Shown in pieces: positions 13,410-54,553 of a DNA stretch of 64,000 nucleotides. A program made the translations under genes and the position numbers. Source of the stretch: a virus; IMG/VR virus record IMGVR_UViG_3300045988_112739; one strand, written 5' to 3'. A model generated the notes under the pieces. That model was not told where the DNA came from and did not search any database. It saw only the letters and a list, made by a program, of their open reading frames with translations. Every line of letters starts with the position of its first letter. Position 1 is the first letter of the stretch.

Positions 13410-13681
13410 CTAAAAGGTTACTGACTATGTATTAAACATAGCGGTCGAAGTTCTTCCAAAAGTGTCTTTACACTTGACCTCAACTCTATATATTTCTATA
13501 TAGTTCAGACTGTATTTTCATCTTTACAGATGTTATCCTCTGCGGTCGTTACGATGAGATTATAAATAATCTTTATCTCGGTATTGTCTACAGCATTATC
13601 TGTTTAGAGTTTCACCGATATAGGATAATTCTGATATCTAAAAGATATCCATATATTTCTATATGTTCGGGCATACATTTT
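13410..13681 (-). ncRNA. probable group I intron (compact, divergent core) in tape measure gene
   Basis: P1: exon CGGGU| pairs with GCCCG 10 nt into the insert (U.G at cleavage site); insert ends CCTTTTAG; all frames closed; hairpins CATATAGAAATATATG and CTATATAGAAATATATAG, TAGACAAT and ACATAGTC elements; excision restores one ORF. Confidence 0.6.
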
Positions 13682-14243
13682 ACCCGCTATTGCAGTCGCA
13701 ATTTGTGCCTGTTCTACGGTATCAAATTCATTCCATCTACGCCCAACATCATCTAGAACATCTTCAAGATTTCTAAATTCTGTTGCACTATTTCTAAGAG
13801 TAATATTATAACGTTTAAGAACCTTTTCGGAATCGTTAATAGCTTCTCCCTCGTCATCAATACTCTTACCAGCTTTTACATTCTGCAAACGAGAGAACAT
13901 TGACTTAAATGCCTGACCTACTGTTTCTGCTGACAATCTAGTGGTTTCACTTGCTGTAGTGAGCATACCCACCATTTTATCAAAGCTAACGCCAGCAGCA
14001 CTAGCAAATGAAGCAGAATACTGGAATGCAGTAGCAAGTTCTTCTGTACTTGTTGCCGCAATAAGGTCGGCATTAACAAGTTTATCTACTACTTCTGCCG
14101 CATCGTCTGCTTCTAATTTATATGAGTTTAAAATTGCAGTTAATTTTTCTGTAGCTTCGCTTGATTCCATTGCACCAAGCGTTGCCATCATAGTAGATGC
14201 TTTAAGTAATTTAGCAGTTTCCTCTGCTGTCTTACCCTGTCTC
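13682..14243 (-). CDS. tape measure protein, exon 2 (core of TP901-type tape-measure domain)
   Basis: RQGKTAEETAKLLKASTMMATLGAMESSEATEKLTAILNSY…AFQYSASFASAAGVSF…; track ORF 13604..14191 has an artificial start and a read-through tail (KMYARTYRN…). Confidence 0.85.
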
Positions 14244-14583
14244 CTGTTATATTAACTAGAGTTCGTCACACTCTAATCTTATAGTTTCCTATAAGCATAG
14301 ACTATATCTTCAATCTAAAAAAGATTGTCCCCCACTTCGATTTAAGGGGTTCTCACCCACGCCATATGACGATTGCGCCCTACTTCTATTGTCCACAAGG
14401 ACTTACGAATAGTCGTTGAACCTTTCTCCTAATAGGAGACTTGGTTGCGGATTGTCCAATATTGATACTTTTTACTATACCTTAATAATTAGTTAAGCCA
14501 TTATAATATTGCTATTATAATTTAGTATATCAATCTCTAAGGAGTTTCCCGCAGTTAAAGGGATTTATAATGACCTAATTAAA
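14244..14583 (-). ncRNA. group I self-splicing intron (IA2-like core) in tape measure gene
   Basis: Minus strand: TTAACTGCGGGAAACTCCTTAGAG, GGACAATCCGC, CAACGACTAT (P7) and GAAGATATAGTC (J8/7-P7', as in Tetrahymena AAGAUAUAGUC). P1 is GGCU|U with AGGUC; ends AATATAACAG. Splice gives …GSVEWL|RQGKTAEE…. Confidence 0.9.
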
Positions 14584-17390
14584 AGCCATTCAACAGACCC
14601 AGAACTCACAATTTCTGTTGTAGTTCCAAGTTCTTTTGCAAGTTCAGAATAACTAGCTAAAGTTTTCCTAACACTAGTATCAGTCTGATTAGTTACCATT
14701 TGTACTTCTGTCATGGTCTTATCGAATTCTTTAGTTTTTTCGATAACGTTTGACAAGCCTTGTCTCATTTCCATGAACAGTCTATTAAATATATTAAAAC
14801 TAAAAGCAACAGCCGCAGTACGTTGGAAACTTGCTTTTAATCTTTCTAACAGTGTCAGTTGCTTACTATTACTCTGATTACTACGAGTTACATTATCTGC
14901 CATTTTAGCATTGGCTTCCGCTACCATATTTGTATAAGTTGAAGTTTTAGCTAATGCATCATTGTCTTTAAGTAGTGCATTATACTGCGCTTGTAACCTA
15001 TCAACAACTGCTTGTTGCTGATTTACAGTAGCATCATTATATGCTCTTGCTTTATACTCTTGAAGTGTAGATTGTGCTTTCTTCAAATTAGTATAAGCAG
15101 TAATCATTTTATTAAGGGTTGCCAAATCACTTTCTTGCTTTGCTTTTATAGTATCGTCTTTTATAGTGGCGTTAGCTTCTGCTACTACGGTTCTTAACTT
15201 TTCATATTGTTCTCTTGTAATACCTAAAGTGGCATTGAAACTCTTCAAAGACATTTGTCCACTTGAAAAATCAATTAAATTTCCAAGTCCACTAGTGCCA
15301 ATTATAGCAGACATCTTATCTTGTACATTTTGATAAGCGGCAGTGTATATACCTTTGTCGCCCTTGCCAGCCTTATTAGTAAGTTTGCCTTGTTCTCTGC
15401 GTAATTCTACATATTCTTGCAAAGATTTAGTTGCTTTAGAATAAACTTCGTTTTCTTGCTTTTGACGTTGAATATCTTTTTCTTTACTATTTGCTACTCT
15501 CTGTAATGTCTGATTATATTCAATATAATTGTTTAGTAATTCTCTTACTCTGTTTGTTAATAACTGAGTGTTTTCAGCACTTCTTAATTCTGTATTATAT
15601 TCAGATAGTTTGGCTTGTGCGATTTTTTGATACTCTGTGGCTTCTTCTATATTTCCTTTTTGCATAGCAGAACGAGATTTTTGCCAAGCCTGATACCTTT
15701 CATTTTCTAATCTTGTTAATTTTGTCACTAAGTTTTGCTGTTGTACGTTTGTATCGCTAGACGTAATTCTATTATATGTATCTGTTGGTATGCGACCATT
15801 ATAAGATTCTATCTGAGTATTTACTTGATTAAGCCTGTTCTGTGTAGTTACAAATTTTTGACTACCCGTTGTCTGTCCAGAAAGTCTACTTTCTAATTTA
15901 GCCCTTTCTGATACTAAATTTGTAAGCTCCTGCTCTAATTGAATTTGTTCTCTTATAACGTTATCTTCGTTTGCTCTTGTTTGAATAGCCCGTTGAATGT
16001 TTTGATTACGTTCCTGTAATTGCCGATTAAGAAAAGAAATACTTTCTGGGTCTTCGGCGTTCCCGTAACCGCTAAAAATAGGGTCTCTACCGCCAGCCAC
16101 CCTACCAGCATTTAATGCGCTTTTCTGAATATTGTTTATTTCAAGCTGATATCTTATTTTGTTTTGTAAAAGATTATCTTCGTTGGCTTCTGCCTCGTAT
16201 AATTTTAATTTCAAATCATACTCTTCTGTGAGTAGTGTTTTATATCTTTCTACCTGGCTGACCTCATCCACATACGTTCTGCTCAAACTAGATGTCCCAC
16301 CACGGCTTAACATCATATCATTAAGTGCTTTAGGGTTTACATTTTGTGGCGTTTTCCCAAATTTATTTGTAATTGTCTGTATATCCTCAGGAGATAAAGT
16401 TATATTTGCACTTTCTCGTCCGCTTATTCTTAATCTAGCGTTTGCTTTTACTAAATTGCCTGTATCGTCAAATACGCCAGTAATCTGCCTAAACAAATTG
16501 CTATAGTTTTTTTTAAATTCGTCAAACCTTTTTCTTGCGTTGATAATTGCGGCATCCGCTTTTTGAGACGCATCTGCTGATATTTTTAATCCCTCTGCTG
16601 TATTTCTATTAAATTCAGACAATTTGGCTCTAGGGTCTTTACTTGCTATAGAGGAATTGTCACTTTCCCCATTATTGCCGCCGCCAGACGGTGAATTTGT
16701 AGATGGATTGCCAGCGTTTTGAGCCGCACCACTTAAAGCATTAGCCGCGTTGCTAACCGCTTGTGCCGCAGTATTTAATGTGGTAGAAGCCCCACTTATA
16801 CTTTGGGAAGTGTTTCCTAAATTAGCATTAGCTGTACCTAAAGCAGAAGCACTATTACCTATATTAGTAGCACTAGTATTTAAACTAGAAGAAGCAGAAT
16901 TAAGGTTCTGAACAGTGGTGTTAAGATTATCAACAGTCTGCATTAATGTTTTATTTAGAGCGTCTGCGTTGGTTGATGTACTCTTCTTATCAGCAGGAGT
17001 TGTTTTTGTCTTTTGAGCTGTAATTACTTTTTCCACTTCTTTAGTAATTGTGGCTAGGTCAGAAGACTTATATCCTGTGCCGCCTATCGTAGCTCTTCCA
17101 GCTTTTGTGTTATAAGTAAACTTTAGACTTTGGTCTGTAATCTGCCTATTGATATCCGTAACGAATTCTGCAAAGTTCTGATAGTCTTTCTTAGATTGTT
17201 CAATCGCCTTTTGTATTGGTTCTCTAAACAGACTTTCTCCTATATTTTTAGTTCCAGAATATTTATTTAAAGCATCAAAAAGCTTCATAATATCATTAGG
17301 AAACTTTGATACTAAATTCTGAAATTGCTGTTCAAATGTACTTGTATCTAATCCTAATTGAACCTTGGCAATTTCTATTTTTTCTGCCAT
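14584..17390 (-). CDS. tape measure protein, exon 1
   Basis: 935 codons of coiled coil plus Ser/Asn/Ala-rich repeats ending …ELAKELGTTTEIVSSGSVEWL, the start of the conserved tape-measure domain. Track tail LIRSL is intron read-through. Confidence 0.8.
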
Positions 17391-20989: not shown

Positions 20990-21508
20990 TTACTCGATTT
21001 TCTTTTCCACAGTTACTATAGTATCATTATGCCACCCACCATGTGCCACCAATAAAATCTCTACTATCTCAAATCCATATTTCTTACCTATTCCACCAGA
21101 ATTCCAACAACAAGTTACTACATAACCATCTTTCTTCATTACCCTGCCTATTTGCTCCTTTTGTTTCGACCAATAACTTGACTGTGTGGTTTCCATATTA
21201 ACTGTCTGACCCATCTTTTTATAGCACTCTGAAACCTGTCTTGGACTATAAGGAGCGTCAAACAGAACCATATCGCAAGATTTATCATCAAACAACTTAA
21301 AAAACTCCAATGAATCTAAATGATAATCTGTATCATATGCAGTATCTAAGTCATTTGTAATCGTACCTAATTTACTTGAATTTGCAAAAGGGTCTAATAT
21401 AATATGCTTCTCAGGCAACTTAGCTATGTACTTATTTATTATCTCTTCAATAGGCTTAATACTAAAAGTATTACTATTTGGCATACACCACACTCTATTA
21501 ATTTCCAT
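20990..21508 (-). CDS. DNA amino-methyltransferase (N6-adenine or N4-cytosine)
   Basis: DPFANS (AdoMet motif I-like) and LFDAPYSPRQ (DPPY-type motif IV). Confidence 0.6.
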   Translation of the reverse strand: MEINRVWCMPNSNTFSIKPIEEIINKYIAKLPEKHIILDPFANSSKLGTITNDLDTAYDTDYHLDSLEFFKLFDDKSCDMVLFDAPYSPRQVSECYKKMGQTVNMETTQSSYWSKQKEQIGRVMKKDGYVVTCCWNSGGIGKKYGFEIVEILLVAHGGWHNDTIVTVEKKIE

Positions 21509-22101: not shown

Positions 22102-22758
22102 TCAGGTTGTCTCGTCCTCAGTATATACCTTGAAGGTATAAAGAGTTCTGTCAAGACAGCCCTTAACAAATTCAAGACCAAGGTTCTGTACAACAGGCTC
22201 ACCATCAGCAGAAACGTCAAAGTTCCAGTTACCGTCAACCTGTGCCTGACCCTCAATCTCGCAAGGGAATAACTCACCAGTACATACGTCCTTTGCAATA
22301 CCATAAGCGGTAGCAAGAACAACCGGAGGAATACCGTCAGAGTTTACGGTGATAGTCTGTGCATTAGTATCAGACTTGAAGCTATATGCACAAGCAATCA
22401 TGTCTCCAGCGGTGGGAGCATCTGTGCCAAAAGTAATCTCCTTAGTACCAGAGTCATAAGAGAAAGTCTCTGTTCCAGTAGCAGTAGCAGCTTGTTTATA
22501 AGTCTTAGAATAAGTGCCATCAGCACCTACAATATAAACAAATTTGATTTCGCTACCAGCAGTACCAGTAGCAGTAAACTTAGTCTTGTACTTACCATCA
22601 CTACCTGCCTCAATTACATCATAATATGTAATAGGGGTAGAACCAGTAACAACCTCAGTACCATTCTGAATAGCCAGTACCTCAGTATTAAATGTAGCAA
22701 CAGTTACATTCATAGTGGCTCTACGAGAGTGTGAGAAGCCACCGCCGATATATACGTC
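22102..22758 (-). CDS. major tail (tube) protein-like, exon 3
   Basis: Frame stays open upstream of track ATG: DVYIGGGFSHSRRATMNVTVATFNTEVLAIQNG…; GC-richer codons, followed by stem-loop. Exact 5' boundary (22757-22758) is uncertain. Confidence 0.55.
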   Translation of the reverse strand, partial: DVYIGGGFSHSRRATMNVTVATFNTEVLAIQNGTEVVTGSTPITYYDVIEAGSDGKYKTKFTATGTAGSEIKFVYIVGADGTYSKTYKQAATATGTETFSYDSGTKEITFGTDAPTAGDMIACAYSFKSDTNAQTITVNSDGIPPVVLATAYGIAKDVCTGELFPCEIEGQAQVDGNWNFDVSADGEPVVQNLGLEFVKGCLDRTLYTFKVYTEDETT

Positions 22759-23105
22759 CTTGGTATTTATATGTATTCGCTAAATACATACCATACAACA
22801 AATGTATGCTCATGCTTTCACATGAGAGTAGGTCATATCACAGACTTATTAAAAGTCTTTCCCCATTTCACAGTCGCTTGACTGTTACGCACCGCCGTGC
22901 TGACCGTCGAACCTTACTTGAATAATTTATTCAAGTCTTGGCGGCTGATTGTCCATTATTACAGTACTTAGGCTTGCACCATATACTATCCACATTATTC
23001 TTTCTACTTTCGTCACATTCACGCTTGTTAATTAAAACTACGTTGTAGTTAATGTGGCTCTTAGGAGTTTCCAGCCATTAAAGGAATTTTTCGATACTTT
23101 TCACA
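22759..23105 (-). ncRNA. group I intron B in tail tube gene
   Basis: Minus strand: AAATTCCTTTAATGGCTGGAAACTCCTAAGAG, GGACAATCAGCC, TTCGACGGTCA (P7) with GTGATATGACC (J8/7-P7'), long P9 hairpins, ends …ATATAAATACCAAG(G). 5' splice site is not canonical (no U.G found), so 5' boundary is +/- a few nt. Confidence 0.7.
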
Positions 23106-23117
23106 AAGTAAAGGGAA
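23106..23117 (-). CDS. tail tube gene, putative micro-exon (about 12-13 nt, TTCCCTTTACTT)
   Basis: Left between the homology-defined 3' end of intron A (…AATATAACG) and the start of intron B; 12 nt keeps frame (…VYPTG-FPLL-DVYIGGG…). Confidence 0.4.
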
Positions 23118-23505
23118 CGTTATATTATTCCTGCACCCAATATCTTCCAATAGGTCGTTAATCTATTGCGTTTTTAAAACAGCTCTATATTTCTATAGAC
23201 GTTGAGACTATATCTTCATACATTTTATGTATGCACTCCATTTCGATTTAAAGGGTTCTCACCTACGCACTTGCGCCCTACTCTTATTGCAATTAACCCA
23301 TTGCTAAAAAAGATAGTCGTTGAACCTTTCTCCTAATAGGAGACTTGGTTGCGGATTATCCAATACCAATACTTATTACCATACCTTAGTAGTTAATTAA
23401 GCCATTACTATATTACTATAATAACTTGGTATATTGGTCTCTAAGGAGTTTCCCGCAATTAAAAGTGTTTTCAAATACCAATCAGTATTTGGAGCAGTAT
23501 TATTT
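23118..23505 (-). ncRNA. group I intron A in tail tube gene (paralogue of tape-measure intron 14244-14583)
   Basis: TTAATTGCGGGAAACTCCTTAGAG, GATAATCCGC, GAAGATATAGTC. A 45-nt block (23313-23357) is identical to 14409-14453. P1 is GGGU| with GCUC; ends GAATAATATAACG. Confidence 0.9.
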
Positions 23506-23655
23506 ACCCGTGGGATATACCATTTCCATTGTATTTTCAAGAGAAGTTGTCTTACAGTTAGTAAGATATGCAATAATGCTCTTGTCAACAGGCTTTCTTA
23601 AAAGAATCTCAAATGCCTGCTGCATAGAGAACTGTTTAGGTGTAGCTAAAGCCAT
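23506..23655 (-). CDS. major tail (tube) protein-like, exon 1 (50 codons)
   Basis: GGAG RBS, ATG 23655; MALATPKQFSMQQAFEILLRKPVDKSIIAYLTNCKTTSLENTMEMVYPTG then stop 2 codons into the intron. Confidence 0.65.
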
Positions 23656-26898: not shown

Positions 26899-27189
26899 CT
26901 TTTATATTTAGCTTATCATATAAAAGACCGTTTGGTTTTCTCATAATTTCTTATGAGCATAGACTATATCTTTACCCTGTTACGGGTATTCCCCACTTCG
27001 GAACGCTTGTTCCTAACGGTATCTCAACCGATAGTCGTTGAGGGTTTTCCTTTTCGGAACTTCCCTGCTGATTGTCCAATCTTATAACTTTTCAAACATT
27101 TACATATAAGCGTATTTCATCTTTCTGCTTTAGTATATAAGCTCTAAGGAGTTTCCAGCATTTCAAGGAATTTATGTATAAACTTCCGT
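26899..27189 (-). ncRNA. group I intron in head-tail region gene
   Basis: AAATTCCTTGAAATGCTGGAAACTCCTTAGAG, GGACAATCAGC, CAACGACTAT (P7), AAAGATATAGTC (J8/7-P7'). P1 is UGUAUAAU| with GUUUAUACA; ends AAATATAAAAG. Confidence 0.85.
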
Positions 27190-27536
27190 ATTATACAAGA
27201 CTTTAAACAACGTTGTGTTCTCAAATCATTATCGTTAAGATTTAATTCCATTTGTACAATATCATTGATATTGTATTCTACCCAAGAAATAACCATAAGT
27301 TCAGAGAGAATATTCTTCTCTTTAATACTAAGAGTAAAATTAAACTCTTTTGAGGTAGTATCTACATCTTCTATATTAGGACAATTATGGAATTTGGCTA
27401 TAGCCTTTATAAGAAATGTCTCTAGTAAATCTTCACCAAGTTCAAAATTTTCCTTAAATAAATTCTTTAAGTGATAATCCTGTATAGAGTTTAAAAATAT
27501 GTGATAAATCTCACTAAATTCTGTATTAGCACTCAC
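27190..27536 (-). CDS. head-tail region protein, exon 1
   Basis: Track ORF 27144..27536; tail RKFIHKFLEMLETP is intron read-through. Confidence 0.65.
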
Positions 27537-46458: not shown

Positions 46459-46534
46459 TGGAGCTGATATCAGGAATCGAACCCGAAACATTCTGATTAC
46501 AAAACAGATACTCTGCCTATTGAGTTATATCAGC
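46459..46534 (-). tRNA. tRNA-Thr (anticodon UGU), CCA encoded
   Basis: Hand-folded cloverleaf. Acceptor GCTGATA/TATCAGC, D stem ACTC/GAGT, anticodon arm TCTGT-TTTGTAA-TCAGA (31-39 U-U mismatch), T arm TCGGG-TTCGATT-CCTGA. Confidence 0.85.
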
Positions 46535-46804: not shown

Positions 46805-46892
46805 TGGTGAGAGGAGTAGGAGTCGAACCTACGGTGTTTCTAACGTACTTGATTTACAGTCAAGCGTCTTCACCAACTAGACATATCCTCCC
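46805..46892 (-). tRNA. tRNA-Tyr (anticodon GUA), long variable arm, CCA encoded
   Basis: Acceptor GGGAGGA/TCCTCTC, anticodon arm CTTGA-CTGTAAA-TCAAG, variable arm TACGTTAGAAACACCGTA, T arm GTAGG-TTCGACT-CCTAC. Confidence 0.85.
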
Positions 46893-50718: not shown

Positions 50719-51611
50719 ATTAAGTTCACTTCCTTTATCGAATATCTCTTGCCTAAGTAATCTACGCCGTTTTCATCAAATATAGGATACTCTACTTTAG
50801 TGGCTTTAGATTTTAAGTTTTCTACAACTATATCTCCAAATGTTTCCCAAATAAAAATCTTGGATTTTGTACTAAAATATCTATAATAAATATCTATAAC
50901 ATAATCGCAAGTCTTTCTGGCATCTGAACAAATAGATGTAATCTTGTTTTCGTATTCCTCGATAAGCGTTGTTATCTCTTGTGCATAACACTCTATGTCA
51001 TCTGTAGGAGTAAACATAATATCTGTTTCGACAGATTTTCTTTCTGCAATTATTCCAGCGTGACGTTTATGGAATTCTTTTATAATTGCTTTTAATTGAT
51101 TGTATAATTCTTTATCGTCTAAGTCATAATTACCAGACATAAGGACTTTATAATCAAAAGGTTGTCCTTGTTTTTTCCACTTGTTGTCAAATTCTGTATC
51201 TTCTACATACTCTGCAAGTATATTCATAATACATCTATTTTTAAGCAAAGGAGAAAATCTATTGTATTGATATAAGAACTTGCTTTCTTCGGAAGTCTTA
51301 TTTTTCTTTCGCATAAGTTCCGTAAGGTCACACTTAAACATAACTCTACAAAGCTGTTTGTAGTTTCTTTTACTAACATTGTAGTGTGTCATTATTTTAG
51401 GATAAACATATCCAAAGAAATATGGTTTTTTATCTGCGCAAATTCTATTGTTAAACGCAATTTCTTGATTTTTAAGAATTGCAGCTCTTTTTTCTTCTTC
51501 TGGCATATCTTCTGTTATTGAAACGTACTTTTGCTTTTTATTCCAGTATTTAGGAGGTGGCACAAAGACATCACCTTTGGCACTATCAATTGCCGTAAAA
51601 CTCCACACTTT
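50715..51611 (-). CDS. DPBB RNA polymerase (YonO/RdRP-like), exon 4
   Basis: Track ORF 50715..51614. In-frame 3' splice candidates after G at 51621, 51612 or 51603, so the 5' boundary is uncertain by about 9 nt either way. Confidence 0.7.
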   Translation of the reverse strand, partial: KVWSFTAIDSAKGDVFVPPPKYWNKKQKYVSITEDMPEEEKRAAILKNQEIAFNNRICADKKPYFFGYVYPKIMTHYNVSKRNYKQLCRVMFKCDLTELMRKKNKTSEESKFLYQYNRFSPLLKNRCIMNILAEYVEDTEFDNKWKKQGQPFDYKVLMSGNYDLDDKELYNQLKAIIKEFHKRHAGIIAERKSVETDIMFTPTDDIECYAQEITTLIEEYENKITSICSDARKTCDYVIDIYYRYFSTKSKIFIWETFGDIVVENLKSKATKVEYPIFDENGVDYLGKRYSIKEVNLI

Positions 51612-51937
51612 CATGTGGTACAGACTATATCTTCATCTTTCTCTATTGAGTTAAGATGTTCGGCACTTCCACTAAATGAATTTCACATTTAGTGTACCAA
51701 ATTCATAGGCATATCACTTGGACTTAGCCCGTGTTTTGTAGTCGTTTGACTTTCAAAATCGTTTCTGATTAAGCTTAGCACAGGATTGTCATATCAAAAA
51801 AAAGATTTAGACTTCCCTGTTAGCATGGCTATTATCTATCATTTCCTATAGATACTAAACGTTAGCCATACACCCTAGATTTCTAGGTTCACCGAATTTT
51901 TAGCTATATATTTCTATATAGCGGTAGCAACAAATCT
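51612..51937 (-). ncRNA. group I intron X3 in RNA polymerase gene
   Basis: P1 is GGUAGU| with GCUACC (6 bp incl. U.G). P2 is GCTATATAGAAATATATAGC. Core elements: 24-nt block GGTGAACCTAGAAATCTAGGGTGT, GCTAACAGGGAAG / GACAATCCTGTGC (P4), AAACGACTAC (P7), GAAGATATAGTC. Confidence 0.9.
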
Positions 51938-52213
51938 ACTACCTTGGTAAAAACGAAGTAAAGATATACGTTTTTTTATTTCTTTGTATTCATTACTATC
52001 TTCTGGATAATTAGCTAACATAGCTATAAGACTAGAAGCTATATTAGTAATAAATCCTATTTTAGTATTGAAACTTTTGGTGTCCATTGTGGCAAAGTTA
52101 TTTGCACTTATTCTTTGTTCTTTTGCTTTTTTCTTTTCGTAAGTTATTGTTGGCTGATTGTCAATTACTGCATTGACTACATACTTATTGTCTGTAACTA
52201 AAAATAAATCTCC
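51938..52213 (-). CDS. DPBB RNA polymerase, exon 3 (92 codons)
   Basis: GDLFLVTDNKYVVNAVIDNQPTITYEKKKAKEQRISANNFATMDTKSF…RISLLRFYQGS; only open frame between introns; length divisible by 3. Confidence 0.8.
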
Positions 52214-52559
52214 CTTTTATACCCTGACTTTCGCCATACTTTAACGCTGATTTAACAGCGGGAATAGACTATATCTTCATCTATTTTCATAGATGTGTGG
52301 CACTTCGATTTAAGAGGATTTCACTCACTGAGAATTTCACTCAGCCCTACTTCTATTGTTCTTTTTAGGATAGAACTAAAGAATAGTCGTTTAACGATTT
52401 TGTTCGCACAGGATTGTCATGTCATAAGATTTAGATTTCCCCTGTTAGCATATCTTCTATTTACCATTTCCTGTAAATCCTAACGTAAGACATACACCCT
52501 AGATTTCTAGGTTCACCACAATATCATATATCATTGCTGAATATATGAGACTAAATTCA
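52214..52559 (-). ncRNA. group I intron X2 in RNA polymerase gene
   Basis: Same 24-nt block (52494-52517). Core elements: GCTAACAGGGGAA / GACAATCCTGTGC, AAACGACTAT, GAAGATATAGTC, P9 hairpin CGCTGTTAAATCAGCG. Ends AGGGTATAAAAG. P1 is only GAU| with GUC. Confidence 0.9.
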
Positions 52560-52565
52560 ATCGTA
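52560..52565 (-). CDS. DPBB RNA polymerase, 6-nt micro-exon TACGAT (Tyr-Asp) or duplication scar
   Basis: Lies between the terminal G of X1 (52566) and the first nt of X2 (52559). In frame; yields D-A-D-Y-D-G-D. Confidence 0.55.
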
Positions 52566-52864
52566 CATTTATACCCCAATTTTCATTGTACTTTAACGCT
52601 GATTTAACAGCGGGATTTGACTATCTCTTTATCTGCTGTTGCAGATATGTGGCACTACGGAATAATGAATTTCACATTAAACCTCTTGAACTCTCGTTCG
52701 TTTAGTCGATACACCTTTCCTTTGTTAAGGACTTGGCACGATATCATCATGTATAATAAATTATATTTAGACTTTCATCGTTAGCCAGCTTGAAGCTGAC
52801 ACCCTAGATTTCTAGGTTCACCACATTCTTAACCAATATTACTATTGGCTCGGACTGACATTTT
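52566..52864 (-). ncRNA. group I intron X1 in RNA polymerase gene
   Basis: P1 is CGGAU| with GUCCG. P2 is CCAATAGTAATATTGG. Core elements: 24-nt block (52799-52822), TATCGACTAAAC (P7), AGAGATAGTC, P9 hairpin CGCTGTTAAATCAGCG. Ends GGGGTATAAATG. Confidence 0.9.
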
Positions 52865-54553
52865 ATCCGCATCGGAGGCGTTTATCGCTTCCATTCCCCA
52901 TATGTTAAGTATATTACCACTATAAATATACTTAAACCACTCTTTACACTCGTCTGAATGATTTATAAAACATTTTTGATTTTCTGAAAAGTCTACTAAA
53001 GGAGACCGCATAAGTGCAACTACATTCGTTCCTTTATCAACCCATCTTTTATTCCAACATTCTCTTTTTCCAAGCAAACCATGAACTTCCATACCTAATG
53101 CGTGTTCGCATAAAGCATAAAGGTCTGGGATAGAAAAGTCATAGCTTCCCTCTACCAAAAGCTTACCAATTTTAGTTTGTCTTACTTTCTTTTCTAGCAT
53201 AAGATTAATTTTATTTCTTATATAGCTGTCGTTAAGTATTGCATCATTATACATTAGTGCTTTTGCAATAGAAGAATCTTGATTTTTTTCAATCGAAGTG
53301 TATTCATCGTCTTCGTCATGGCTTCCTAAAAGAAACAACATGGAATAAAGTTTATCTCCAGTCATTATCTTTTTTATCCAATCTAATGAAAAATCTGCTA
53401 ACTGTTTTATACTTTCCTCTGTAAATTTATTGGACTGGACATATTGATAATTCATAGGAGTGTAAATGTTGTTTTGCTTTTTAGTTACTCTTGCTACACC
53501 AAAGATATGATTGAACTTTTGGTGATAGTACATATACTGTTGCCAATTCTCATATTTCTTTGCCATTTTAAATTGACTTTTAGTAAGTATGACATCAATA
53601 TCATCAATGTTATACTCCACACCCCAAAGGTCTGTAATGACTTCTTTGTGTGCAACTTCTTTTGCAAATTTATGAAAATCAAATATTGATACAAGTCCTT
53701 TTATCCAGCAAGACCTAAGGATAAACGAAGCAGGAAGATAATCTAATTTCAAATCTTCTTGCCAAAGTTTAGCCATTTCGGGACTAATCATTCCTGCACC
53801 ATCAAAGGCGTTGATTTCGAAATCCATTATTTTATCTTGAACATCTTTTTCACCTTTAGGATTATCATAAATCCATTTTATATTCTGGTCTTTTAATGTG
53901 TATTCAAAATCATTAACTACACATATTCTGGGTTTTCTAACCTGTCTTGTCGCACTAGTATAGAGTGCGAAGTATGCGCTGAACTTGGCGAGGTTAATTT
54001 TACCTATACTCTGTCTTGTCAAACCACACATCATTGTTCGTTCTAGCAAATTATGAATACTAGAATCGACAAATATCGCAGAGTTTCTTCTCAACTGTCC
54101 TGCTCCTGCGCATAAACGGATATAGTGTGTAGTTACAGCTTTACCTCCTAAATCTACCGTAACTGTAAATCCATTTTTGCAAAGGTCTTTGTAATCTTTT
54201 TTAGTGGTGTCTACTTTTACTGATACTATTTCTGGAACAAACAGTAAATTTTCGATTTCCTTTTGTATCTCTAAAATTTCATTTGAATGTTCGTTACTTT
54301 CATTTAATTGCTTTAAGTGATTTCTTTTAGAATACAAATTTTGAATGTATTCTTTTTCGAATGGTCTTTCTTGAATTTGTCGTATAAATCTAAGAAGTTG
54401 ATTGTCTCCTAAAGCAACCATCATACCCAGCTCTTTTGCAGAACGCAAGGTAAATCTCATAGATTTATCATTGCTCATGATATATGATGTGTTTATCTTT
54501 AGGACATTAAACAAATCCATTTTAGCCAATTTATCAGTCCTTTCAATAGACAT
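52865..54553 (-). CDS. DPBB RNA polymerase (YonO/RdRP-like), exon 1 (563 codons)
   Basis: Ends …VVALMRSPLVDFSENQ…WGMEAINASDAD. Track tail KMSVRANSNIG is intron read-through. Compare eukaryotic RDR …NPCLHPGD…SGSDLDGDLYFV… (recollection). Confidence 0.7.

What the first reader, a model, noticed from the sequence alone, without database searches (positions are those of the whole stretch)
22759..23505. Tandem group I introns in the tail-tube gene separated by a micro-exon of about 12 nt
Exon 1 (23655-23506, MALATPKQ…MEMVYPTG) is followed by intron A. By homology to the other family members, which end AATATAAC(A)G, intron A ends at …GAATAATATAACG (23118).

The core of intron B (AAATTCCTTTAATGGCTGGAAACTCC…) starts only about 30 nt later. 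Its guide region forms a perfect hairpin with the intervening TACTTT (TACTTT-GTGA-AAAGTA). This leaves TTCCCTTTACTT(T) as the only possible exon.

Twelve nt (FPLL) keeps the frame into DVYIGGGFSHSRRATMNVTVATF…. Intron B would then use a U-A rather than a U.G pair at its 5' splice site, which is very unusual.

This is the second closely spaced intron pair in the window.
Basis: partly seen in the sequence, partly recalled or inferred. Interest (0 to 1): 0.7.

Follow-up and report, generated by a model that had tools for sequence, protein, structure and literature searches.

The report
Tandem self-splicing introns, ten-base exon

Summary
The core of the finding holds, but the anatomy needs correcting. 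Two group I introns interrupt the YomU_Tube-family gene on the minus strand.

- Intron A is 23505..23138 (368 nt; Rfam 73 bits).
- Intron B is 23127..22758 (370 nt; Rfam 34 bits, below the curated cut-off). B belongs to a subfamily with strong covariation: 53 of 70 pairs are compensatory.
- The micro-exon is GGTGCAGGAA (23137..23128, 10 nt). It is not TTCCCTTTACTT.

Evidence for the micro-exon:
- Intron-less homologues read YPTG-GAG-N-VYIGGGF, and Asn is present in 95 of 95.
- Natural alleles carry A without B, B without A, A+B+C, and a B-less GGAAAC.

The spliced CDS is 271 aa.

One anomaly remains. Frame, the invariant Asn and the intron-less alleles all place B's 5' splice site after an A that pairs with U. 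The U·G wobble sits one base inside the intron. Canonical cutting would shift the frame. A related intron at another site in the same gene (Z) has the same design. No RNA data were available, so cDNA is needed.

Tandem phage introns are already known (Twort, 23-nt exon), so this is a new variant of a known kind. The N-terminal roughly 65 codons of the gene are an intron hotspot.

The parts
23506..23655 (-). Exon 1 of the tube gene (50 codons, ...MEMVYPTG, ends ACGGGT)
   Evidence: ORF and translation. Aligns to residues 1-50 of intron-less homologues. In allele L146, which lacks intron A, it is contiguous with the micro-exon.
23138..23505 (-). Intron A, group I, 368 nt, no ORF. Begins AAATAATACTGCTCC and ends GAAGATATTG.
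   Evidence: Rfam RF00028, 73.2 bits against a gathering score of 50. Absent exactly at these borders in L146. Present with the same 3' border in L002, L003, L004, L005, L144 and L125.
23492..23495 (-). Intron A guide sequence GCUC. It pairs with exon GGGU (U23506.G23495 wobble = canonical 5' splice site). UACU (23499..23496) can pair with GGUG of the micro-exon (P10).
   Evidence: MFE and centroid fold. Exon/guide covariation with the A-type intron of L143 (ACAGGU/GCCUGU). The P10 pairing is read from the sequence.
23128..23137 (-). Micro-exon GGTGCAGGAA (10 nt): Gly-Ala-Gly plus the first base of Asn55
   Evidence: Homologue motif YPTG-G[AR]G-N-VYIGGGF. Contiguous with exon 1 in L146 and with exon 3 in L002, L004, L005 and L156. 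The spliced CDS is in frame, 271 aa.
22758..23127 (-). Intron B, group I (IA2-like with P7.1/P7.2), 370 nt, no ORF. Begins TAATATAACGTTCCC and ends AAATACCAAGG.
   Evidence: Rfam 33.9 bits, E 6.6e-5 for the whole window, below the gathering score. Subfamily covariation. Compensatory changes against allele B' in L155. Absent exactly at these borders in L156. The copy in L146 carries an HNH ORF.
23114..23118 (-). Intron B internal guide sequence GUUCC. UUCC pairs with GGAA of the micro-exon, and G23118 pairs with the intron's first base U23127.
Evidence: Centroid fold. B-plus alleles always have GGA (not GGC) for Gly54, which is what the pairing needs.
23095..23110 (-). P2 hairpin of intron B (UACUUU-GUGA-AAAGUA, GNRA loop).
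   Evidence: In L155 it becomes UACUCU-GUAA-GGAGUA: the pairs are compensated and the GNRA loop is kept.
22831..22905 (-). P7 of intron B (GGUCA 22905..22901 with UGACC 22835..22831), enclosing P7.1, P7.2, P3' and P8. Its first G-C pair occupies the position of the guanosine-binding pair.
   Evidence: Coordinates. P7 covaries with the family form GACUA/UAGUC, and the G-C pair at the guanosine-binding position (assignment from my own knowledge) is invariant in 27 of 27.
22102..22757 (-). Exon 3 (AC GTA TAT ATC GGC ... = (N)VYIGGGFSHSRR... to the stop codon)
   Evidence: The 203-aa ORF inside it is found identical on 9 contigs.

Best explanation
Two separate, ORF-less group I ribozymes of the IA2-like kind common in phages interrupt codons 51-55 of a YomU_Tube-family virion gene. 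This is the putative tail tube of an SPbeta-like gut phage.

Each intron removes itself:
- Intron A (23505..23138) is canonical. Its 5' splice site follows U23506, which is wobble-paired to G23495. Its last base is G23138.
- Intron B (23127..22758) ends with G22758.

The 10-nt micro-exon GGUGCAGGAA is kept in the mRNA. Its 5' part (GGUG) can pair with A's guide region (P10). Its 3' part (GGAA) pairs with B's guide GUUCC (P1). Ligation gives ...YPTG GAG N VYIGGGF..., a 271-aa protein.

Both introns are mobile elements, or remnants of them. Relatives carry any combination of A, B and further introns, some with HNH endonuclease ORFs.

Shown:
- both ribozyme folds
- the DNA-level borders, from presence/absence alleles
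- frame and motif restoration

Inferred, with no RNA data:
- that splicing occurs at exactly these bonds
- in particular, that B is cut after A23128, which is Watson-Crick paired to U23117, rather than after the wobble-paired U23127
For: **Rfam.** Hits for both cores.

**Fold of intron B.**
- A 27-member alignment of B-type introns shows 96.9% of cells paired, against 34-40% in the slid controls. 53 of 70 pairs have compensatory changes, and 0 of 500 shuffles reach the observed values.
- Window B against the diverged allele B' (L155) shows compensated pairs in P2, P4, P5 extension, P7.2, P8, P9, P9.1 and P9.2.

**Borders.**
- L146 lacks A and reads CCAACAGGT^GGCGCAGGAA|TAATATAACG.
- L002, L004, L005 and L144 have A, then GGTGCAGGCAA(T/C)GT... 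with no B.
- L156 has an A-type intron, then GGTGCAGGAAACGTATATGTG. That is exactly the predicted ligation product.
- L003 has A+B+C.

**Coding.**
- Homologues have G-x-G-N between YPTG and VYIGG, and Asn is present in 95 of 95.
- Only the 23128|22757 junction gives Asn in frame. The other registers give Asp, Ile or a frameshift.

**3' end.** The P7 G-C pair at the guanosine-binding position is invariant. Unambiguous relatives end ...GG| (L107). Both point to G22758 as the terminal G.

**Viability.** The identical A+B locus is on 9 contigs from several samples.

**Fold prediction.** The GGAAU/GUUCC and P2 hairpins are in the centroid structure.
Against: - No cDNA, RNA-seq or in vitro splicing data exist. 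No spliced-transcript protein appeared among the homologues; the best full-length hit is 84% identical.
- Intron B scores below Rfam's gathering score (33.9 against 50).
- The deduced 5' splice site of B breaks the rule that group I introns follow a U in a U.G pair (PMC2504315). A purine at position -1 abolished Anabaena intron activity (PMC12355055).
- The U.G pair one position downstream should compete as a cleavage site. Cutting there, with G22758 as the terminal G, gives a frameshift and a stop codon.
- P1 of B is only 4-5 bp. The short hairpin folds are not better than shuffled sequence (z -0.56 and -1.4).
- The label 'tail tube' rests on a precomputed Pfam family name (PF27173) and on PHROG 2729 'virion structural protein'. 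It does not rest on a structure.
Confidence: 0.8

Rival explanations
1. Intron A runs to 23118, the micro-exon is TTCCCTTTACTT (FPLL), TACTTT/AAAGTA is P1 of intron B, and exon 3 starts with Asp at 22758.
For: - The frame is kept.
- The hairpin is real, and it even shows a compensated change in L155 that would be synonymous in the FPLL frame (CTT to CTC).
Against: - Alleles with A and no B continue directly from ...GATATTG into GGTGCAGGCAATGT.
- The allele without A has GGCGCAGGAA contiguous with exon 1.
- No homologue has FPLL or a five-residue spacer, and G-x-G-N is universal.
- The hairpin has a conserved GNRA loop and sits where P2 sits in related introns.
Confidence: 0.02
2. The same two introns and micro-exon region, but intron B is spliced in another register.
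- Either at the canonical wobble (GGAAU|), with the 3' cut after A22757. This gives an 11-nt micro-exon and Ile55.
- Or one base upstream on both sides (GGA|...CCAAG|GAC). This gives a 9-nt micro-exon and Asp55.
For: - The U23127.G23118 wobble is the textbook cleavage signal, and it is in the predicted P1.
- Both registers keep the frame.
- The 3' ends of all B and Z alleles read AGGA.
Against: - Ile or Asp would replace an Asn that is invariant in 95 of 95 homologues.
- The Ile register needs a terminal A. Yet the P7 G-C pair at the guanosine-binding position is invariant in the family, and clear relatives end in ...GG| (L107).
- Neither product matches any intron-less allele, whereas GGAAAC does (L156).
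- The Asp register still has a purine at position -1.
Confidence: 0.13
3. Intron B, or the pair, is not accurately removed. Either exon skipping joins 23506 to 22757, or canonical cutting gives a frameshifted mRNA. The gene would then be defective, or expressed only as the 203-aa ORF starting at Met69.
For: - Exon skipping by tandem group I introns is documented in Twort orf142, Coxiella 23S rRNA and the SIOphi terminase gene.
- The canonical splice-site rules applied to B give a frameshift.
Against: - Skipping would also break the frame (GGT|ACG TAT...; read from the sequence).
- The N-terminal 68 residues are highly conserved among homologues.
- The identical locus recurs on 9 contigs, and B occurs in three different intron combinations.
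- B shows purifying selection on its helices.
Confidence: 0.04

Closest known systems
Staphylococcus phage Twort orf142, introns 2 and 3 (Landthaler & Shub 1999, as summarised in PMC10136302)
   Same: Several IA2-type group I introns lie in one phage gene. A very short internal exon is flanked by two ribozymes and must serve one intron's 3' side and the next intron's 5' side.
   Different: The Twort exon is 23 nt; this one is 10 nt, and relatives have 15 and 18 nt. Twort shows exon skipping, which here would break the frame. Twort's splicing was shown experimentally; here it is inferred. The two introns here are not close copies of each other (A-type and B-type).
Bastillevirinae phage introns: the phiNIT1 RNR small exon between two introns, and exon skipping in the SIOphi terminase gene (PMC11878797)
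   Same: Bacillus-type phages with two or three group I introns per gene. A small exon between two introns was found only by cDNA reads.
   Different: The genes differ (polymerase, terminase, RNR rather than a virion tube protein). The exon length is not given in the text I read. Those junctions were verified by cDNA.
Mini-exons between group I introns in fungal and other mitochondrial genes such as cox1 (PMC10352661)
   Same: Exons shorter than about 4 codons lie between group I introns. They are found by noticing conserved residues missing from the exon model, which is how this one was located.
   Different: Those are organellar and often depend on proteins for splicing. They are reported to occur regularly there, whereas the shortest phage exon I found reported is 23 nt.
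Canonical members of the same B/C intron subfamily. Example: the intron in a family-B DNA polymerase gene in L107 (IMG/VR), ...TTGAAT|TAATGGATAGTTCAC...AACGG|TCT
   Same: They share the core, the P5-extension signature GTGACGAAAGTAGAAA, a GUUC-type guide, an intron start of UAA and a 3' end of ...GG.
   Different: In L107 the exon ends with the wobble U (K-ICLN|SLYG). In intron B, and in intron Z, that exon U is missing and the intron's own first U pairs with the guide G.

Membership tests
Group I intron (RF00028): intron A | Covariance-model score at or above Rfam's gathering score | tested here: met
   73.2 bits against 50; E 1.1e-16
Group I intron (RF00028): intron A | 5' splice site after a U that is wobble-paired to G of the guide (P1), and a terminal G at the 3' end | tested here: met
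   ACGGGU|, with U23506.G23495. Ends ...AUAUUG (G23138). The borders are fixed by the A-less allele L146.
Group I intron (RF00028): intron B | Covariance-model score at or above Rfam's gathering score | tested here: not met
   33.9 bits against 50. E 1.3e-6 in the local search and 6.6e-5 for the whole window.
Group I intron: intron B | Conserved core helices P3-P9, including the P3/P7 pseudoknot, supported by covariation | tested here: met
   27 subfamily members: 96.9% of cells paired, 53 of 70 pairs compensatory, slid controls 34-40%. B against B' also shows compensations.
Group I intron: intron B | Guanosine-binding G-C pair in P7 and a terminal G | tested here: met
   The P7 first pair G-C is present in 27 of 27. 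The intron ends ...CCAAGG, and relatives with unambiguous junctions end ...GG|.
Group I intron: intron B | 5' splice site immediately 3' of a U in a U.G wobble pair | tested here: not met
   The only register that restores the frame, Asn55 and the intron-less sequence is GGAA|U. There position -1 is A, paired with U, and the U.G wobble is at +1. This is an inference from DNA, not from RNA.
Group I intron: both introns | Self-splicing with guanosine addition | not testable with these tools
   Needs in vitro transcription and splicing, or cDNA.
Mobile (homing) intron | Precise presence/absence polymorphism among close alleles, and an endonuclease ORF | tested here: met
   Presence/absence combinations of A, B, C and Z are seen in L002, L003, L004, L005, L125, L144, L146, L155 and L156. 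HNH_3 ORFs lie inside B (L146), C (L005, L144) and Z (L157). The window copies have no ORF.
Twintron (intron nested within an intron) | One intron lies inside the other, so the outer one cannot fold until the inner one is removed | tested here: not met
   A and B are adjacent, not nested. Each occurs alone in other alleles.
Subgroup IA2 | P7.1/P7.2 insertion between P7 and P3' | tested here: inconclusive
   Two covarying hairpins occupy that position in B (22900..22889 and 22884..22871). No formal subgroup classifier was run.
Phage tail tube protein (PF27173 YomU_Tube) | Match to the family profile; tube fold | tested here: inconclusive
   The PF27173 label is precomputed for all homologues, and the neighbours are YomV, YomW and YomX. 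The local Pfam copy gave no hit. PHROG 2729 is 'virion structural protein'. There was no PDB sequence match. No structure was predicted.

The most novel reading that the evidence does not exclude
Intron B, and the related intron Z found at codon 44/45 of the same gene in other phages, are natural group I ribozymes whose 5' cleavage occurs one nucleotide upstream of the conserved U.G wobble. The cut follows a purine that is Watson-Crick paired to the guide (GGAA|U...G-UUCC). This would be an exception to the near-universal rule for choosing the 5' splice site. Cutting by the canonical rule would kill an essential virion gene.
Probability: 0.55. Interest if true: 0.8.

Novelty: new variant of a known kind. 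Interest (0 to 1): 0.6.

Why it matters
**Annotation.** Gene callers split this essential virion gene into a 51-aa and a 203-aa ORF and lose a conserved motif. The same happens in dozens of metagenomic relatives. Micro-exons of 10-18 nt between phage introns are invisible to standard pipelines.

**Mechanism.** Ten nucleotides is close to the minimum that can serve both as the P10 partner of one ribozyme and as the P1 partner of the next. The locus is therefore a natural test case for how tandem ribozymes avoid exon skipping and interference.

**Splice-site rule.** If the deduced 5' junction of intron B (and of Z) is confirmed, it is a natural exception to the U.G splice-site rule. It could be dissected with a 400-nt transcript.

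**Evolution.** At least eight insertion sites, all but one within the first 65 or so codons of one gene, and up to three introns in a row, document intense intron and homing-endonuclease traffic in a structural gene of gut phages.

Tried and rejected
The argument from a family motif AATATAAC(A)G fails. Only one other intron of the window (14278-14620) ends that way. The other matches in the window are not next to any intron.
- **Canonical splice-site pairs for B.** I enumerated every pair with U at -1 and G at the 3' end. All give frameshifts, a loss of the NVYIG segment with the invariant Tyr57, or insertions of 2-9 residues with a 3' site inside the P9.2 loop (reasoning; the key registers are translated).
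- **More B alleles by scanning.** The B leader AATATAACGTTCCCTTTAC gave only chance hits in JGI metagenome contigs and none in IMG/VR.
- **L060 as a third offset case.** L060 is B's closest relative. I rejected it because a canonical solution exists 3 nt downstream (...TGTATG|GGAAAT).
- **Phage database by DNA.** No relative, only an unrelated Staphylococcus phage intron fragment. tblastn gave one intron-less homologue at 42% identity.
- **Protein family checks.** The local Pfam scan and the PDB sequence search gave nothing for the tube protein.
- **Twort paper.** The original paper (PMC22036) is not held, so its exon size is taken from PMC10136302.
- **Intron C.** I could not settle its register (GGAG| or GGAGC|), nor the -1 base (C or G) of the A-type intron of L054.

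Full report
**What is in the sequence**

The gene lies on the minus strand. Exon 1 (23655..23506) encodes MALATPKQ...MEMVYPTG and ends ACGGGT. Rfam's group I model matches 23531..23183 at 73.2 bits, above the gathering score of 50. With permissive filters it also matches 23136..22809 at 33.9 bits, with E 1.3e-6 locally and 6.6e-5 for the whole window. The window holds eight such hits in all, every one on the minus strand.

**Where the exon between them is**

A search with the joined protein found 221 relatives. All carry the precomputed Pfam label PF27173 (YomU_Tube), and many are full-length and uninterrupted. Aligned, they read ...MEMVYPTG-G[A/R]G-N-VYIGGGF.... Only four residues lie between YPTG and VYIGG. 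Asn is present in 95 of the 95 homologues that carry the motif.

The window has GGTGCAGGAA at 23137..23128.

Joining 23655..23506, 23137..23128 and 22757..22102 gives an 816-nt CDS of 271 aa that reads ...YPTGGAGNVYIGGGFSHSRR.... That is one residue too long, and no homologue resembles it.

**Natural alleles fix the DNA borders**

| Locus | Intron content | Sequence at the site |
|---|---|---|
| L002, L004 | A, no B | ...GATATTG\|GGTGCAGGCAATGT(A/G)TA... |
| L005, L144, L125 | A plus a third intron C in codon 60, no B | |
| L146 | no A; B carries an HNH ORF; C present | CCAACAGGTGGCGCAGGAA\|TAATATAACGTTCCC |
| L003 | A, B (98.6% identical) and C in tandem, micro-exons of 10 nt and (in the GGAG\| register) 15 nt | |
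| L156 | A-type intron, no B | GGTGCAGGAAACGTATATGTG |
| L155 | A-type intron plus a diverged B' | GGCGCAGGAA\|TAATATAATGTTCCC...ATAAAGG\|ATACATATGTGGGT (again gives Asn, AAT) |

The L156 sequence is exactly the predicted exon-exon product. The window's own arrangement is 100% identical in L152, L153 and L154, and its 203-aa ORF occurs on 9 contigs from several samples. This is therefore a circulating phage and not an assembly accident.

Together these alleles show three things:
- Intron A is 23505..23138.
- Intron B is the insert TAAT...AAGG (23127..22758).

**Intron B is a real, constrained ribozyme**

A 16-mer from its P5 extension (GTGACGAAAGTAGAAA) hit at least 119 IMG/VR contigs. By blastn, nearly all of them carry B/C-type introns.

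I aligned 27 non-redundant copies.
- RNAalifold found compensatory changes in 50 of 65 predicted pairs.
- With the P7 pseudoknot added, 96.9% of cells are paired, against 34-40% when the partners are slid.
- 53 of 70 pairs have changes on both sides, and no shuffle out of 500 reaches the observed values.
- The P7 G-C pair at the position of the guanosine-binding site is invariant in 27 of 27. B's own P7 (GGUCA/UGACC) is a triple compensation of the family's GACUA/UAGUC.
- Window B against B' of L155 shows compensated pairs in P2, P4, P5 extension, P7.2, P8, P9, P9.1 and P9.2.

The GNRA loop is kept, and the hairpin sits where P2 sits in the family. It is P2, not P1.

B's guide sequence is GUUCC (23118..23114), which pairs with GGAA(U). 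B-plus alleles always use GGA for Gly54, whereas four of the five B-less alleles use GGC. That is consistent with the pairing.

**Intron A is canonical**

U23506 pairs with G23495 (GGGU/GCUC). The A-type intron of L143 covaries (ACAGGU/GCCUGU). The last base is G23138. The bases just 5' of the guide G (UACU) can pair with GGUG, the start of the micro-exon (P10; read from the sequence).

The 10-nt exon can therefore serve A's P10 with its first four bases and B's P1 with its last four. That is an inference about mechanism and has not been shown.

**The unexplained point: B's 5' splice site**

[quoted passage not shown] In the Anabaena intron the -1 base must be a pyrimidine (PMC12355055).

In B the U.G pair is U23127.G23118. 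Cutting there, with G22758 as the terminal G, gives GGAAU-ACG, which is a frameshift and a stop codon. The frame-preserving alternatives are:
- GGAA|...GG|AC, which gives Asn
- GGA|...AG|GAC, which gives Asp
- GGAAU|...GGA|C, which gives Ile and needs a terminal A

Four points favour the first register:
- Asn is invariant.
- The P7 G-C pair at the guanosine-binding position is invariant.
- Clear relatives end in ...GG|, for example L107 in a family-B DNA polymerase K-ICLN|SLYG motif (the motif assignment is my own knowledge).
- Its product is identical to an intron-less allele (L156).

At the DNA level the insertion [T...G] in GGAA^A is unambiguous.

A related intron, Z, sits at codon 44/45 in L125, L002 and the 66%-identity lineage L157. 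It has the same design: ATGGAA|TAA...GTTCCC......AGG|ATGGT. The window itself is the Z-less allele, ATGGAAATGG.

So two related introns appear to be cut one base 5' of the wobble U, after an A paired with U.

Other family members are canonical: L107, three introns of L143, L139, and the window's introns at 14278-14620 and 13486-13691. The A-type intron of L054 (C or G at -1) and intron C (G or C at -1) also lack a U. I put about 0.75 on the Asn register. Only RNA data can settle it.

**Context and comparison**

The neighbouring genes carry the labels YomV, YomW and YomX, which points to an SPbeta-like tail module. PHROG 2729 calls the protein a virion structural protein.

Across relatives, the first 65 or so codons hold introns at about codons 39/40, 44/45, 46/47, 50/51, 55, 60 and 62/63. 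Another lies near codon 229.

Known comparisons:
- Tandem group I introns with short exons occur in Twort orf142 (23 nt) and Coxiella 23S rRNA (34 nt) (PMC10136302).
- They also occur in Bastillevirinae phages (PMC11878797).
- Mini-exons under four codons are reported to occur regularly in mitochondrial genes (PMC10352661).

The finding is therefore a new variant of a known kind: a shorter phage exon, a dense hotspot and a probable non-canonical splice site.

**Verdict**

The corrected coordinates are given above. Interest is 0.6.

Noticed in passing
window 51450-53050 (-): Three group I hits lie in one gene (52598-52840, 52246-52497, 51602-51947). The first two cores are only about 100 nt apart, so another micro-exon (about 4-11 nt, near 52575-52590) is likely.
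   Followed up: partly
window 13486-13691 and 14278-14620 (-): Two group I introns in a tape-measure-like gene. Both have canonical junctions by inspection: GCGGGT|...GAATTG|GTACAT and TGGCT|...ATAACAG|GAGACAG. The second is the only other intron in the window that ends AATATAACAG.
   Followed up: partly
L125:721-1130, L002:1-120, L157:1250-2510: Intron Z at codon 44/45 of the tube gene in other phages has the same guide (GUUCC), the same exon end (GGAA) and the same one-base offset from the U.G wobble as intron B. It leaves an 18-nt micro-exon (ATGGTTTATCCCACGGGT) before intron A.
   Followed up: partly
L003:2555-2971, L005:159-1122, L144, L146: A third intron (C) in codon 60 of the same gene. 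L003 has A+B+C in tandem. The C copies in L005 and L144 carry an HNH_3 ORF. No frame-preserving register puts a U at -1 (GGAG| or GGAGC|).
   Followed up: partly
L054:3889-4270 (and L104): An A-type intron in a tube gene 52% identical to this one follows ...ACCGGC. Position -1 is therefore C, paired with the guide G (a C-G pair instead of U.G), or G in the alternative register.
   Followed up: partly
IMG/VR loci L006-L124: The 16-mer GTGACGAAAGTAGAAA marks a widespread subfamily of phage group I introns. Several contigs carry two or more copies.
   Followed up: partly
tube-gene relatives: P0002-P0117; L139, L141, L143: Truncated ORF calls and tblastn show intron insertion sites at about codons 39/40, 44/45, 46/47, 50/51, 55, 60, 62/63 and 229 of this one protein family.
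   Followed up: partly
window 46462-46534 and 46808-46892 (-): Two tRNA genes (Rfam 64 and 58 bits).
   Followed up: no
window 26940-27218 (-): The best-scoring group I intron of the window (83 bits), in another gene.
   Followed up: no
window 20990-21508 (-): A 172-aa ORF with DPF...DAPYSP motifs that resemble a DNA methyltransferase. It gave no hit in the local Pfam scan.
   Followed up: no
L003:4803-5840, L005, L146, L152: A tyrosine-recombinase gene (PF00589) sits about 2 kb downstream of the tube gene in all close relatives, inside the structural module.
   Followed up: no
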